64,000 nucleotides of DNA from the human T2T-CHM13v2.0 reference genome, Homo sapiens. Below the pieces are notes generated by a model that was given only the letters and a program-made list of their open reading frames with translations, was not told the DNA's origin and did no database searches. Numbering within the stretch: position 1 is the first letter of the stretch; each line of letters opens with the position of its first letter. This document shows positions 22,011-53,800 of this stretch, in pieces. A program made the position numbers and the translations under genes. The DNA is taken from assembly GCF_009914755.1 (NCBI RefSeq), contig NC_060931.1; one strand, 5' to 3'.

Positions 22011-25000
22011 CTAATACCTCAGTGGGTGTACACCCACCTGTGATGTTGTTCCTAATGTCCAGGGAGGGAGAGAGCATGATATGACGTTCAATATCGCAGT
22101 AGGTGTACACCCACCCGGTGATATTGATCCGAATATCATCTCCAGGGGGTGGCGTATGACGTTACTCCCAAGATAGCAGTGGCTGTGCATCCACCCGGTG
22201 ATATTCCTCCTAATATTCCCAGAAGAAGAGAATGCTATTACTCCCAGTATCTCAGGAAGTGTACACCCTTTCTGTGACATTGCTCCTAATATCCGGAGGG
22301 GGAGAGGGTGATATTACTGGCAATATTGCAGGCTGTGTGCACCCACCCTCTGATATTGTTCCTAGCAGCCAGGAAGTGAGAGGACGATATGACTCCCCAT
22401 ACAGCAGGAGGTGTACACCCATCCTGGGATATTATTCCTAATATCCACGGAAAGGAGAGGCTGATATGACTCCCAATATCGCAGGGGGTGTACATCCAGT
22501 CTGTGATATTGTTCTTAATATTCAAAGGTGGAGAGGTTGATATTACTCCCAATATCACAGAAAGTGTACAAGCCCGTGTACTATTGTTGCTATTATACAG
22601 AAGAAGAGAAGATGATATCACCCCCCCATCGCAGGAGGTGTACACCCACTCTGTGATATTTTTTCCAATGTGCGGGGCAGGGGAGGATAATACTCTTCTT
22701 CATAGCACAGGGTGTGTACAGCCCCACCGTGATATGGTCCTTAATATTCCAAGGCGGAGAGGATGATCTTACTCCCAATACCGCAGAAAGTGTACACAAC
22801 CCCAGTGATATGGTTCCCATGATCCAGGAGAGAAGAGGATGATGTTACTTTCAATATCGCACGGGGTGGACACGCTCCGGTGATATTGTTCCTAATTTCA
22901 ACGTGGGAGAGGATGATACTACACGGAATGCCCCTAGGGATAAAAACACTCCTGTGATATTGTTCTTAATATCAAGGGGAAAGAGGATGCTATTACTCCA
23001 AAGAGCGCAGAGGATGTGCACCCGTCTGTGATATAGTTGGTAATTTCCAGAGGTGGAGAAGATATTACTGACAATAACGTGAACACGCTGTGTGACCACC
23101 GTGGATCGTCATATCCAGGGGGGGAGAGGGGGTGCTGATATGACTCCCCGCATCGCGGGGGGCGCCCGCCCCCCTGCGACGTGAATCATCATATCTAGAG
23201 GGGGGTGATATGACTGCCCGCATCGCGGGGGCCTCATCCCCTTGCGATGGGGGTCCTAAGAGCCAGGGGGTGATAGGGGCTGGCTCTTACTCCCCGTACC
23301 CCAGGGTGGGGCCTTACCCCCCTGCAAAGGGGCTCCTAAGAGCCAGGGGGAGAGAGGGGCTGGCTCTTACTCCCCGTATCGCAGGAGGTGGGTACAACCC
23401 CTGCGATATTGGGAGTAATGTCATCCTCTCCGCATGAATATAAGAAACAGTATCACAGGAGGATGTACACCCCCTGCGATATTGGAAGTAACAACATTTT
23501 CTCCCCCTCCGGATATTCGGAACAATATCACAGTGGGTGTGTACAGCCCCTGCGACATTGCCGCTAGTATCTTCCTCTCCCTCCCAGGATAGAAGGAACA
23601 ATGTCACAAGGGGGTGTACACTCCCTGCGATATTGGCTGTAATATCTTCCTCTCCCCCGCTGCCCTTTAGGAGCAATGTTACACAAGGGGTGTACACCCC
23701 CGGCTATATTGGGAGTGATATCATCCTCTCCGTCCCTTTATATTAGGAACAATATCCCTAGGGAGTGTACACATCCTGCAATATTCAGACTAATAGCATC
23801 CTCTCGCCGCCTGGATATTAGGATCAATATCACAAGGATGGTGTGCACCCCCGGCGAAATTGGAAGAAATATCATCATCTCCACCTTTGGATGTTAGGGA
23901 CAGTATCTCGGGGGAGGTCTCCACCCCCTGCGATATTGGGAGTCATATCCGCTCCCACCCAGGATATTAGGAACAAGATGACCGAAGGGATGTACACCCA
24001 CTGCGCTATTTTCAATAATGTCATCCTCTACCCCCCGGCTATTAGGAGTAACATCATAGAGGGGTGTACACTTTCTGCGATATAGGGAGTCATATCCTCT
24101 CCCCCACGGATATCGGGAACAGTTCTATTAATTATTAATATTAATAAATATAATAACAATTAATAGTAATCATCAATATTAATAATTACAGTAGAGACAG
24201 TAAAACAGTACAGATGAAAAATATTAACGGTTACTATTAATAATTAATAGCAATATCACTATTAATAATAAAATAATGATATCACTAATTAATGTTACTT
24301 CAATCAATCATAAGTGATGTTGGTAATAAAACAATAATTAATATTAAGATTAATAACTAATATTAAAAGTGACATTAATCTTAATAATTAATTTTAATCA
24401 TGCATAATCATATCTTGAAAATAATCATTAATGATTAATAACGTTATACTGTTAATTAATATTACCATTGATAATTATTAATAAGACTGATGTTTAATAA
24501 TTCAGAATATTATTACTGCTAATACCACAGGGGGTGTACACCTACCTGTGATATTGTTCCTAATATCCAGGGATGGAGAGCATGATATTAGTTTTCATAT
24601 CGCAGTAGGTGTACACTCACCCTGTGACACCGATCCTAATACCCAGAGGGTAGAGTATGACATGACTGCCAACACAGCAATCAATGTACAGCCACCCGGT
24701 GATATCGCTCCTAATATTCACGGAAGAAGCGTATGATATTACTCCCAATATCGCAGGGAGTGTACACCTCTTCTGTGATGTTCTTCCTAGTATCCCGAGG
24801 GGGAGAGGGTGATAATAATTCCAGCATCGCAGGCTGTGTTCACCCAGCCTGTGAAATTGTTATTAATATCCTGAAAGGGAGAGGATGATATTACTCCCCA
24901 TAATAGATAGATATGACTCCCCATAATAGAGCAGGAGGTGTACACCCACCCTGTGATATTCTTCCTAATATTCGGAGGCTGAGAGGTTGATATTACTCCC

Positions 25001-25545
25001 AATATCGCAGGAAGTATACACCCCCATGTGAGATGGTCCTTCATAATATTCTAAGGCGGAGGGGGTGATATGACTACATATATGGCAGAAAGTGGACACC
25101 CCCCAGGGATATTGTTCCCATGATCCTGGAGGGAAGAGGATGATATTACTTTCAATATCACAGAAGGTGGACACGACCCCACTGATATTGTTTCTAATTG
25201 CAATGTGGGAGAGGAGGATATGACACGTGATATCCGAGGGAGTGGAAACACCCCTGTGATACTCTTCTTAATATTCGGGGAGGAAGAGGATGATATTACT
25301 CCCAATACAGACGGGTGTACACCCTCTGTACACCGAGGGTGTACACCCGTCTCTGAAACAGTTCATAATCTCCAGAAGGGGAGATGATATTGCTCACAAT
25401 ATGGTAAACAGGCTGTGAGTCCACCGCGGATCCTAAAAACCAGGGGGGGAAGAGGGGCTGGCCCTTACTCCCCGCATCGCGGTGGGTGCCTCACCCCCCT
25501 GCGATGGGGGTCCTAAGAGCCGAGGGGGAGAGGGGCTGTTCCCTA
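22010..25545. repeat. Type-B satellite array with GC-rich variant patches (23100-23390, 25430-25545), an inverted block (23390-24120) and an internal AT-rich spacer
   Basis: Units read gatattactcccaatatcgcagg before ~23390, cctgcgatattgggagtaat from 23390 to 24120, then forward again after 24520. Confidence 0.85.
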
Positions 25546-50829: not shown

Positions 50830-53800
50830 ACGCCCTAATACCTCAGTGGGTGTACACCCACATGTGATATTGCTCCTAATGTCCAGGGAGGGAGAGAGCA
50901 TGATATTACGTTGAATATCGCAGTAGGTGTACAACCAGCCGGTGATATTGATCCGAATATAATCTCCAGGGGGTGGAGAATGACGTTACTCCCAATATAG
51001 CACTGGGTGTACATCCACCCGGTGATTTTGCTCCTAATATTCACGGAAGAAGAGAATGCTATTACTCCCAACATCGCAGGAAGTGTACACACCAGTGTGA
51101 GACGGTCCTTAAAAATATTCCAAGGCGGAGGAGGTGATATGACTACATATATGGCAGAAAGTGGACACCCGCAAGGATATCATTCCCATGATCCTGGAAA
51201 GAAGAGGATAATATTACTTTCAATACCACAGAAGGTGGACACGCCCCCAGTGATATTGTTTCTAATTGCAACCTGGGAGAGGAGGACATGACACCCGATA
51301 TCCCAGGGAGAAGAAACACCCATGTGATACTGTTCCTAATATTAAGGGAGGAAGAGGATGATATGACTCAAAACACAGACCGGTGTACAACCTCTGCACA
51401 CAAAGGGTGTACACCAGTCTGTGAAAAGGCTCAGAATCTCCAGAGGGGGAGATGATATTACGCACAATATGATAAAAAGACTGTGAGTCCACCGCGGATC
51501 CTAAGAGCCAGGGGGGCAAGAGGGGCTGGCTCTTTCTTTACTCCCCGCATCGCGGGGGGCGCCTCGCCCCCCTGCGATGGGGGTCCTAAGAGCCAGGGGG
51601 GCAAGAGGCGGTTGCTATTACTCCCCGCATCGCGGGGGGCGCCCTCACCCCCCTGCGATGTGGCTCGTAATATTCAGTGGGGAGAGCGGTTGATATTACT
51701 CCCTTTCTCCTATTATGTTTTCTCTACTGCCACGCTTAGTTAACATCCTGGGACATTATTTTCCATCTTCTAGGATGGTGTCACTGTTTAAGTCCCAGGG
51801 GTTATACACCCTGTGATATTATTCGTGGTATTGTCGCGAAACATGAATCCGTATTTCACAAGTCTCTACACACTCTGATATGATTCGCAACACCCTAACG
51901 ATACGTTAATAATAATGCCACAATGTGTGTTCAGCGTGTGCTATTATTCTTAATCTCCTAAGGGGAGGTTGATTTTATTGTCACACGGAGTATTTTCCCT
52001 GTGGTATGATTCGGAATATCCTGGAAGCATGTCACTCTTTATGTCACAGGGTTTGTGCACCTTTTCAAATTACTCGTATTACCCTTATAAGATGTCACTC
52101 CTCATATCAACGAGGGTGTACACTCTGTGATATTATCGTCATATTCTAGGGAAATGTTACTTTTAATGTCACAGATGTTGCACACCTTGTGAAATTATTC
52201 GTTATAGTTTTGTTTGATATGACTGCTAACGTCACACGGGGTGTACATCCAGTGATATTACGTGTAATCTTCTATAGAAATGTTACTCGTAAATCACAGG
52301 TCCTGTACACCCTTTAATATTCTTCGTCTTATTCTAGGAAAACGTGACTACTAATGTCCCAGGGCGTGTAGACCCTGTCATAAAATTCGTAATATCCCAG
52401 CGGGAGTTCACTACTAATTTCACAATGCGTGTACACCCTTTGATATTGTTCGTATTATCCTAAAGAGATGTGACTACTGATGTCCCAATGCATGTACATT
52501 CTGTGATATTATTCCTTATATCCTCGAGGGATGTGACTTCTAATGTCACACGGCGTGTAGTCCCTGTGTTCTATTTCATAATATCCTAGGGCAATTGTAC
52601 TGTTAATGACACAGGGGGTGTACACATTGTGATATTATTCATGATATTGTAGAAGGATGTTACTCCTAACGTCACAGGGTGTACACCCGGTGATAGTATT
52701 CAAAATTTCCCAGGGGTCTATACTCCTAATGTCACAGAAGATAACACACTGTGACATTATTTGTAATATTCTGGTGAGATGATTCTCCTAATATCACAGG
52801 AAGTGTATACCCTGTGATAGTATTCTTACTATTCCAGGGGGATGTCACTTGTAATGTCACAGGTGTCTTCCTTCCTGATATTATTGAAAATATGCTAGCT
52901 GGATATTACTACTAATGTCAGAATGCGTGTACCCCTTGTGATATTATTAGTAATATTCTGGGGGGATGTTACCCCTAACGTTACAGAGGTGTACACCGTG
53001 TGATATTGCTCCCAATATTGTAGGGGGATGTTACTCCTAATGTCACAGGGGGTGTACAGCCTTTGATATTATTTGCAATCTTATAGAGACATATTACTTT
53101 AATGATCACAGTGGGTGTACACACATGGGCTACACCCACTGGGATATTATTTGTAATATCTTAGGGAGATATAACTCCTAATATCACAGTGGGTGTAGCC
53201 CATGTGTGTACATCCTGTGATATTATTTGTAATATCCATGGTAAACATTACTTCTAGTATCCCACAGAGGGTACACCCTGTGATATTTTTCATATCATTG
53301 GGAGATATTTCTTCTAATAACACAGTGGGTGTACACCATGTGTGTACACTCTGTGATGTGATAGCTTATATCCTAGGGAGATATTCCTTCCAATATCAGA
53401 GTGAGTGTACACCTTGTGATATCATTCGTAATCTCCTAGAAAGATGTTGCTGCTAATATCACAGAGGGTGTGCCCCCAGTGACATCATTCGAAATATCCT
53501 AAGGAGATGTTACTCGTAATGTCACGGGGGTTGTACACCCTGTTATATTATTGTAATATTCTAGGGTGGTGTTACTTTTAAAGTCAAAGGGGTGTACACC
53601 CTGTGATGTTATTCGTAATATCCTAGGAAGAGGTTACTCCTAATATCACAGCCTGTGATAGCATTCAGAATATCCAAAAGGGATGTTACTTTTAATGTCA
53701 CATGGGGTATACACCCTTTGATAATATTCGTAAGATCCTACGGACATATGACTTCAAATATCACATTGGATGTACACACATGGTGTACACATTGTGTGTG

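What the first reader, a model, noticed from the sequence alone, without database searches (positions are those of the whole stretch)
23100..51700. A GC-shifted satellite variant occurs only at rearrangement junctions (4 of 4 patches)
Seen: a homologue of the type-B unit with systematic AT-to-GC changes (taatatcc to taagagcc; gatgatattactcccaatatcgc to ggctggctcttactccccgcatcgc) appears at 23100-23390 (array strand switch), 25430-25545 (left edge of the UNC93B insert), 35092-35170 (right edge of the insert) and 51490-51700 (type B to type A switch). I saw it nowhere else. It is CpG- and G-run-rich and keeps the hairpin (catcgcgggggg...cccccctgcgatg). Inference: it is either a breakage/strand-invasion seed (hairpin or G4) or a scar of GC-biased conversion at recombining ends.
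Basis: partly seen in the sequence, partly recalled or inferred. Interest (0 to 1): 0.7.

Follow-up and report, generated by a model that had tools for sequence, protein, structure and literature searches.

The report
GC-rich SATR1 satellite variant patches
The four GC-rich patches are copies of one fixed slot in a known repeated human DNA module (the OR7E "Xiao" duplicon), so their position at "junctions" is inherited and is not four separate rearrangements.

Summary
A 77-80 bp, 65-70% GC relative (G) of the 76-bp satellite (type B, inferred to be SATR1) occurs in the window only at 23109-23407, 25431-25538, 35082-35170 and 51499-51662. Every consensus base change from B to G except one is AT-to-GC.

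The "4 of 4 junctions" count is pseudo-replication. G fills a fixed slot in a conserved composite. The order is retroviral fragment, B(+), G, then a core of B(-) ~730 bp, AT-rich 410 bp, B(+) ~850 bp and G, then the 63-bp satellite. This is the SATR-HERV-E-SATR arm of the published Xiao/DA duplicon. It matches the "SATR1v" core unit described in macaque.

- Patches 1 and 2 bracket one core.
- Patches 2 and 3 are two halves of a single G unit, split by a 9.5-kb UNC93B1-derived insert.
- Patch 4 is the same slot in the neighbouring Xiao copy.

The arrangement recurs at six other UNC93B loci (95-96% identity) and on ten chromosomes. Elsewhere G forms arrays of up to 28 units.

One part of the idea survives. 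In my biased sample, G blocks abut unrelated DNA unusually often. This includes the duplication boundary inside the UNC93B1 gene.

The parts
14002..15524 (+). 63-bp satellite array (type A, inferred SATR2), left end of composite arm 1
   Evidence: TRF; nhmmer (23 units)
15524..17568 (+). 76-bp satellite array (type B, inferred SATR1). The A-to-B switch at 15524 has no G
   Evidence: 27 units
17569..22025 (-). Internal retroviral fragment (gag p30, protease, RT, RNase H, integrase), the HERV-E part of the published SATR-HERVE-SATR arm
   Evidence: Pfam; literature
22026..23079 (+). B array, 14 units
23109..23407 (+). G patch 1: two hybrid units (left half B-like, right half G-like), then two full G units
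   Evidence: the same unit pattern at L038 (chr7:99.19 Mb)
23398..24123 (-). Inverted B array, 10 units (core unit)
   Evidence: conserved at 13 of 24 sampled sequences
24124..24533 (+). AT-rich spacer of the core unit (GC 0.18)
   Evidence: 82-97% identical copies in every core unit
24534..25404 (+). Forward B array, 11 units (core unit)
25431..25538 (+). G patch 2: one full unit plus a unit cut after profile column ~30
25539..35081 (-). 9.5-kb segment derived from the 3' part of UNC93B1 and its 3' flank (UNC93B2 pseudogene), inserted within one G unit
   Evidence: hub annotation
35082..35170 (+). G patch 3: the rest of the split unit (columns ~34-79) plus columns 1-39 of the next unit
35171..37068 (+). 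Segment R1, 95% identical to window 58322-60210. The G|R1 joint is shared by 5 loci
43682..46416 (+). A (43682-44147) then B (44147-46416) arrays of composite arm 2. No G at the switch
46417..50849 (-). Second copy of the retroviral fragment (about 88% identical to 17569-22025)
50850..51470 (+). B array, 8 units
51499..51703 (+). G patch 4: two G units, then one B-like unit, before the A array
51743..54725 (+). A array (45 units) closing arm 2, followed by OR7E59P
   Evidence: hub annotation

Best explanation
The variant is a distinct, older subfamily of the 76-bp SATR1-type satellite. Its unit is about 77-80 bp and about 70% GC. It is most probably the 'SATR1 variant' annotated in T2T-CHM13 and called SATR1v in macaque.

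It fills one fixed, variable-length slot in a conserved composite. The order is: HERV-E internal fragment | SATR1(+) | G | [SATR1(-) ~730 bp | AT-rich ~410 bp | SATR1(+) ~850 bp | G] x 0-2 | hybrid units | SATR2. This composite is the arm of the Xiao/DA OR7E core duplicon.

The four patches are that slot seen four times:
- Patch 1 and patch 2 lie on either side of one core unit.
- Patches 2 and 3 are one G unit split by a single 9.5-kb UNC93B1-derived insertion.
- Patch 4 is the slot in the neighbouring Xiao copy, which has no core unit.

The strand switch and the B-to-A switch are built into the composite. All four patches arrived by segmental duplication.

Shown: the anatomy, the paralogy, the genome-wide arrays and the AT-to-GC polarity.

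Inferred:
- G arose once from a B-like unit by GC-biased change.
- The slot grows and shrinks by unequal exchange (1-28 units).
- Its stable GC hairpins make it a favoured, though not exclusive, joint to other duplicons.
For: G sits only at the four places in the window.

Internal paralogy:
- 13210-22571 matches 42894-51390.
- 24925-25528 matches 50994-51600.

Copies elsewhere:
- The right part of the UNC93B segment has seven copies at 95-96%.
- All 7 copies have G on the right of the segment at the same phase. 5 of 7 have G on the left at the same phase.
- The insert interrupts one unit between profile columns ~30 and 34-39.
- Complete core units (G|B-|AT|B+|G) occur in 13 of 24 sampled sequences. 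These lie on chromosomes 2, 3, 4, 7, 9, 11, 12, 13, 14 and 22. Two more are cut at a locus edge.
- The core-less form (HERV|B x8|G|...) occurs in 6 of 24, five of them followed by an A array.
- Patch 4 is colinear at 90.3% with L006 and L042.
- The patch 1 mosaic is repeated unit by unit at L038.

Genome-wide counts:
- 283 hits to a 19-mer, with 0 hits to the reversed control.
- 91 patch-type 27-mers.
- 272 array-type 27-mers.
- Arrays of up to 27.5-28 units.

Polarity: where G differs from B, type A agrees with B at 18 positions and with G at 4.

Literature:
- Xiao is OR7E flanked by SATR2, SATR1 and ERV1 (passages). The arm is SATR-HERVE-SATR.
- The macaque core unit is GC-rich SATR1v, inverted SATR1, an AT-rich repeat, then forward SATR1 (passages).
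- A SATR1 variant was newly annotated in CHM13 (one passage).
Against: - I could not compare G with the Dfam or CHM13 'SATR1 variant' consensus. The Science paper is not held and bioRxiv supplements are closed. The names SATR1v, SATR1 and SATR2 therefore rest on architecture, unit sizes and one positional match at 13q21.
- The sub-array sizes differ from the macaque figures: ~730 and ~850 bp here against 589 and 191 bp.
- Only about half of the ~37 patch-type loci listed were fetched.
- No outgroup genome was available, so the age rests on paralogue divergence and on the macaque preprint.
Confidence: 0.85

Rival explanations
1. Breakage or template-switch seed. G arrays, through their stable GC hairpins, are the preferred places where the composite breaks, accepts inserts, or where a duplication ends. 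On this reading the link with junctions is causal, even though the patches themselves are inherited.
For: - The 9.5-kb UNC93B segment entered inside one G unit.
- The G|R1 joint lies only ~85 bp further on.
- About 17 distinct G|non-satellite joint classes lie on 28.0 kb of G. About 9, of which 4 are canonical, lie on 61.9 kb of B.
- Beyond G lie four different kinds of sequence: a subtelomeric duplicon found at 15 chromosome ends plus an interstitial chr2 site at 114.0 Mb, unique DNA, a TE followed by unique DNA, and a 4-copy duplicon.
- In the full-length UNC93B locus, the 7-copy duplication ends exactly at a ~300-bp G patch that carries an inverted G fragment. The sequence beyond it is single copy.
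- Hairpins fold at -12.5 to -19.1 kcal/mol. The mean unit energy is -19.0 for patch-type G against -7.0 for B.
- Mohajeri 2016 maps 8p23.1 integration breakpoints to SATR1/SATR2 of Xiao (passages).
Against: - The loci were chosen by a G motif and centred on G, so B and A array ends are under-sampled.
- Joints shared by paralogues are single events.
- A slot at the end of an arm meets foreign DNA by position alone.
- 51 of 79 scorable 5' neighbours and 45 of 82 3' neighbours of G blocks are ordinary satellite.
- There is no canonical G4.
- I have no data on breaks, single-stranded DNA or population variation.
Confidence: 0.35
2. Scar of GC-biased conversion made in place at each recombining end. 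On this reading B units next to a junction were converted to G after each rearrangement.
For: - All but one of the consensus substitutions from B to G are AT>GC, and none is GC>AT.
- There is a graded series: B, hybrid units, patch-type G, array-type G.
Against: - The same substitutions and the same indels define G at every locus (104 patch-type and 214 array-type units).
- The mosaic of patch 1 is essentially repeated at another locus.
- G fills multi-kb arrays with no B-to-foreign junction.
- 13 other array ends in the window show no shift.
- A GC-rich SATR1 variant with the same neighbours is reported in macaque.
Confidence: 0.05
3. G is the LSau / beta-satellite-associated GC-rich repeat, not a SATR1 relative.
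For: Only a recalled resemblance: both are GC-rich, carry a Sau3A site and lie in heterochromatin-like blocks.
Against: - The G consensus aligns to the B consensus over a whole unit, with 56 of 68 aligned bases identical.
- The 75 exact 19-mer hits include none on chr10 and none on distal 4q, where D4Z4 with its LSau lies. That placement of D4Z4 is recalled.
- The complete list of 91 patch-type hits has none there either.
Confidence: 0.02

Closest known systems
SATR1v (SATR1 variant of Hoyt et al. 2022; SATR1-SATR1v mixed arrays of the T2T rhesus macaque preprint 10.1101/2025.08.04.668424)
   Same: It is a GC-rich relative of SATR1 and forms variable-length arrays. The order of neighbours is the same: GC-rich array, inverted SATR1, AT-rich repeat, forward SATR1. 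These repeat as a core unit.
   Different: - Human sub-arrays are ~730 and ~850 bp. The macaque figures are 589 and 191 bp.
- In human the cores are interstitial, few (0-2 per arm) and embedded in OR7E duplicons. In macaque they form Mb-scale arrays, mostly subtelomeric.
- Sequence identity to the published consensus was not tested.
Xiao/DA core duplicon with SES (SATR-HERVE-SATR) arms (Ji and Zhao 2008; Li 2009 PMC2700803; Mohajeri 2016 PMC5088589)
   Same: The window holds OR7E pseudogenes flanked by 63-bp and 76-bp satellites around an internal retroviral fragment, as described. Breakpoints in 8p23.1 were mapped to SATR1/SATR2.
   Different: The passages I read do not single out a GC-rich sub-block, the inverted-SATR1 core unit, or the UNC93B1 insertion.
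GC-rich or satellite-like repeats at boundaries of pericentromeric duplications (for example CAGGG repeats; recalled, no call)
   Same: A short GC-rich tandem repeat lies where duplicons meet.
   Different: The sequence and unit length are unrelated. Here the repeat is part of the duplicon itself.

Membership tests
SATR1v (GC-rich SATR1 variant) | Homologous to the SATR1 unit but GC-rich | tested here: met
   G aligns to B with 56 identical positions, 11 AT>GC and 7 indel positions. GC is 0.70-0.74 against 0.49. That B is SATR1 is inferred.
SATR1v (GC-rich SATR1 variant) | Core unit order: SATR1v array, inverted SATR1, AT-rich repeat, forward SATR1 | tested here: met
   Window 23109-25538 has this order. 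Complete cores occur in 13 of 24 sampled sequences. The sub-array lengths differ from the macaque figures.
SATR1v (GC-rich SATR1 variant) | Variable-length arrays mixed with SATR1 | tested here: met
   Blocks of 1-28 units. 49 of 82 G blocks have B(+) on the 5' side.
SATR1v (GC-rich SATR1 variant) | Match to the Dfam/CHM13 consensus of the SATR1 variant | not testable with these tools
   No Dfam library is held. PMC9301658 is not held. bioRxiv supplements are closed.
Xiao/DA duplicon arm (SES) | Satellite, HERV-E internal fragment, satellite, next to an OR7E core | tested here: met
   B arrays flank a gag-pro-RT-RNaseH-IN fragment. OR7E39P, OR7E136P and OR7E59P are in the hub annotation. The HERV-E subtype itself was not tested.
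G-quadruplex-forming repeat | Four runs of 3 or more G with loops of 1-7 | tested here: not met
   0 of 4 patches. 0 in a 2.2-kb G array. With loops up to 12: 1 of 4 patches, and 7 in the array.
Hairpin/cruciform-prone palindromic repeat | Stable intrastrand stem predicted in each unit | tested here: met
   13-14 bp stems at -12.5 to -19.1 kcal/mol. The unit mean is -19.0 against -13.6 for shuffles. This is a prediction only.
LSau / beta-satellite-associated repeat | Presence in D4Z4 (4q35, 10q26) and on acrocentric arms | tested here: not met
   No exact 19-mer hit on chr10 or distal 4q. None among all 91 patch-type hits. The locations of LSau are recalled.

The most novel reading that the evidence does not exclude
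Within the Xiao/DA core duplicons it is specifically the GC-rich SATR1v slot, not SATR1 or SATR2 at large, that acts as the breakpoint and insert acceptor. Its very stable hairpins would stall forks and provoke template switching. This would explain three things. Unrelated duplicons (the UNC93B1 segment, a subtelomeric block, a retroviral fragment) are joined to it. The duplication boundary inside the functional UNC93B1 gene is a G patch with a fold-back. These cores sit at the recurrent 8p23.1, 4p16 and 11q13 rearrangement breakpoints.
Probability: 0.3. Interest if true: 0.55.

Novelty: already known. Interest (0 to 1): 0.3.

Why it matters
As posed, the finding reduces to known biology: a satellite variant in a known core duplicon, counted four times because the duplicon is repeated. 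That is worth stating, because it shows how paralogy can mimic independent coincidence.

The residue could matter. Xiao/DA cores lie at the breakpoints of clinically relevant 8p23.1 and 4p16 rearrangements, and the element within them that actually breaks is not known. If the GC-rich slot is that element, the question becomes directly testable with T2T annotations and pangenome breakpoints.

The G patch at the duplication boundary inside UNC93B1 is also practically relevant. UNC93B1 is a TLR-trafficking gene, and its 3' exons have six near-identical copies, which complicates variant calling there.

Tried and rejected
- LSau identity: rejected. There are no hits at 4q35 or 10q26.
- Canonical G4: rejected.
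- CpG-island-like nature: CpG density is high, but observed/expected (0.32-0.71) overlaps that of the B arrays.
- First attempt at diagnostic columns: it failed because the B units were in another phase. It was redone with two-unit stretches. One search ended with a script error after printing the columns.
- Phase of G ends at foreign joints: they are spread over profile columns 30-78 with a loose cluster at 30-41. There are too few, and local alignment ends are too soft, to claim a site preference.
- History of the UNC93B1 locus: I could find no single model that explains G on both sides of the segment at the parent gene. It is left open.
- Literature on single-stranded or non-B signal at SATR1/SATR2: the one preprint that measured it gives the result only in a supplementary figure I cannot see.
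- Naming the variant from the Science paper or its tables was not possible.
- Sampling the remaining ~17 patch-type loci was not possible.
- No structure, complex or protein-homology tool was relevant.

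
Full report
**What is in the window**

TRF finds two satellites. One has a 63-bp unit (type A). The other has a 76-bp unit (type B).

I built profiles of A, B and the GC-rich unit (G) from the window and 18 fetched loci. I then scanned both strands. G appears only at 23109-23407, 25431-25508, 35082-35170 and 51499-51662. A further 30-column partial unit runs to 25538.

The motif CCTAAGAGCC has 6 exact matches, all in the patches.

The patches differ from the B arrays in composition:

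| Measure | Patches | B arrays |
|---|---|---|
| GC | 0.65-0.70 | 0.45-0.49 |
| CpG per 100 bp | 3.8-7.6 | 1.6-3.3 |
| Runs of 5+ G or C per 100 bp | 3.3-5.1 | 1.0 |

The central palindrome folds into a 13-14 bp stem at -12.5 to -19.1 kcal/mol.

A canonical G4 motif is absent from all 4 patches. With loops up to 12 it occurs in 1 of 4.

**The GC shift**

Consensus units came from 104 patch-type G, 214 array-type G, 761 B and 397 A units.

- B to patch-type G: 56 identical positions, 11 AT>GC, 0 GC>AT, 1 AT>AT, 7 indel positions.
- B to array-type G: 14 AT>GC and 0 GC>AT.
- Patch-type G differs from array-type G at 4 positions, and there it mostly keeps the B state.

Where G and B differ, A agrees with B at 18 positions and with G at 4. 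G is therefore the derived form.

Units at the edges of the patches are mosaics, B-like on the left half and G-like on the right half. This gives a graded series: B, hybrid, patch-type G, array-type G.

**Why "4 of 4" is not four events**

The window is internally paralogous:

- 13210-22571 matches 42894-51390 at 88-93%.
- 24925-25528 matches 50994-51600 at 86%.
- 35180-37068 matches 58322-60210 at 95%.

The stretch between the B arrays (17569-22025) encodes gag p30, protease, RT, RNase H and integrase on the minus strand.

The layout of the window is therefore:

- A | B | retroviral fragment | B x14 | G | B(-) x10 | AT-rich 410 bp (GC 0.18) | B(+) x11 | G | UNC93B segment | G | R1 ...
- Further on: A | B | retroviral fragment | B x8 | G | B-like unit | A.

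Thirteen other array ends or type switches in the window have no G. These include both A-to-B switches.

**Copies elsewhere**

The right part of the UNC93B segment has seven copies in CHM13 at 95-96%. I fetched all six others.

- Window 21000-35170 is colinear with them through patches 1-3.
- All 7 copies have G to the right of the segment, starting at profile column 34-38.
- 5 of 7 have G to the left, ending at column 30-31.

The segment therefore interrupts one G unit, with 3-8 bases missing. Patches 2 and 3 are two halves of one patch.

Three copies (both chr4 copies and chr11:71.53 Mb) carry a second core unit between the segment and R1. The window and chr11:67.70 Mb lack it. chr3:75.67 Mb has two cores before the segment.

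Complete cores (G | B- | AT | B+ | G) occur in 13 of the 24 sequences I annotated. These are on chromosomes 2, 3, 4, 7, 9, 11, 12, 13, 14 and 22. Two more are cut by a locus edge.

The core-less form (retroviral fragment | B x8 | G | ...) occurs in 6 of 24, five of them followed by an A array. The patch 4 zone aligns at 90.3% across the patch with L006 and L042.

The four-unit mosaic of patch 1 is essentially repeated at chr7:99.19 Mb.

All four patches are thus one slot of a repeated composite, inherited by duplication.

**Genome-wide picture**

- A G-specific 19-mer has 283 hits with at most 1 mismatch, and the reversed control has 0. Only 100 hits are listed.
- The patch-type 27-mer has 91 hits with at most 2 mismatches. 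All are listed. They fall in about 37 loci, in runs of 1-7, often in pairs about 2.1 kb apart.
- The array-type 27-mer has 272 hits in about a dozen loci. Only 100 are listed.
- In the fetched loci G forms blocks of up to 28 units (2.2 kb). These often alternate with a 600-bp piece of the same retroviral fragment.
- 72% of the sampled G bases lie in blocks of 5 or more units.

**Names**

- Mohajeri 2016 (passages) describes the Xiao core duplicon as OR7E flanked by SATR2, SATR1 and ERV1. It maps 8p23.1 integration breakpoints to these satellites.
- Li 2009 (passages and part of one section) describes the arm as SATR-HERVE-SATR.
- The macaque T2T preprint (passages and part of one section) describes SATR1, GC-rich SATR1v and SATR2. 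Its core unit is SATR1v, inverted SATR1, an AT-rich repeat and forward SATR1. It cites Hoyt 2022 for SATR1v.
- The Hoyt preprint (one passage) lists a new variant of SATR1 in CHM13.
- Cardone 2006 (passages) places 2.3-2.6 kb SATR2 blocks in a palindromic pair at 13q21. This fits the 2.5-kb A array in L016.

From these I infer that A is SATR2, B is SATR1 and G is SATR1v. I could not test G against the Dfam consensus.

Searches for SATR1/SATR2 (31 papers, 20 listed) and for SATR1v (one work) turned up no description of this slot in human Xiao arms. I searched no other terms.

The sample holds 82 G blocks.

| Neighbour of G block | 5' side | 3' side |
|---|---|---|
| B(+) | 49 | 22 |
| B(-) | 0 | 19 |
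| 600-bp retroviral piece | 17 | 17 |
| UNC93B segment | 8 | 5 |
| R1 | 0 | 5 |
| OR-adjacent sequence | 1 | 2 |
| A | 0 | 2 |
| G | 2 | 2 |
| Unmatched DNA | 2 | 8 |
| Locus edge | 3 | 0 |

After collapsing shared joints, G meets non-satellite DNA in about 17 distinct ways on 28.0 kb. B does so in about 9 ways, 4 of them canonical, on 61.9 kb.

The flanks beyond G are varied:

- A subtelomeric duplicon present at 15 chromosome ends and at an interstitial chr2 site near 114.0 Mb.
- A transposable element followed by unique DNA.
- Unique DNA.
- A 4-copy duplicon.

At chr11:67.99 Mb the copy continues to the right into single-copy DNA. That DNA holds an ORF matching UNC-93 profile positions 27-86, so this is the full-length gene, presumably UNC93B1. 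There the 7-copy duplication ends at a ~300-bp G patch that includes an inverted G fragment.

This suggests that G is a favoured joint. However, my loci were picked by a G motif and centred on it, and only about half of the patch-type loci could be fetched. The enrichment is therefore not established.

**Verdict**

The coincidence is explained by a known composite repeat. In-situ conversion scars are excluded. A causal role of the GC-rich slot in rearrangement is open, at about 0.3.

Noticed in passing
L010 4581-4890 (G000:C11:67999581-67999890): The full-length UNC93B locus (presumably UNC93B1) carries a ~300-bp G patch in an intron, exactly where the 7-copy, 95-96% duplication ends. The patch ends in an inverted G fragment (fold-back). 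The sequence beyond it is single copy and holds an UNC-93 N-terminal ORF. G also lies on the other side of the duplicated segment at this parent locus, which I cannot explain with one event.
   Followed up: partly
L015, L016, L017, L013 (G000:C13:62.96, 63.06 and 79.93 Mb; C3:8.67 Mb): Higher-order tandem arrays in which G blocks of 1-19 units alternate with a 600-bp piece of the retroviral fragment (window 18927-19532, RNase H/RT region). At C3:8.67 Mb eight B units also take part. The two 13q21 loci are a palindromic pair.
   Followed up: partly
L027 4306-5800 (G000:C3:75677306-75678800): At chr3:75.67 Mb the G patch to the right of the UNC93B segment abuts a subtelomeric duplicon. That duplicon is found at 94-96% identity at 15 chromosome ends and at an interstitial chr2 site near 114.0 Mb. 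Its first 70 bases match arrays spaced ~93 bp apart at those ends.
   Followed up: partly
G000:C11:71.53 Mb copy (L019-L021), my coordinates 9198-10068: This copy lacks the first 3.7 kb of the UNC93B segment. At the breakpoint sits an inverted two-unit G block, preceded by an extra 10-unit B array.
   Followed up: no
window 35171-37068 and 58322-60210: R1 recurs at 95% identity downstream of OR7E59P. Relative to the neighbouring Xiao copy, the G|R1 joint therefore looks like a deletion of about 6.6 kb (A array plus OR7E core) with one end in G.
   Followed up: no
window 24124-24533: The AT-rich spacer (GC 0.18) inside the core unit is conserved at 82-97% in every core unit sampled. Its origin is unknown.
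   Followed up: no
L022 5321-6470 (G000:C11:67700321-67701470): At chr11:67.70 Mb the UNC93B segment has no G or B on its left. Instead there is DNA that is single copy beyond an L1-like repeat. This could be the ancestral 3' flank of UNC93B1, now 290 kb from the gene.
   Followed up: partly
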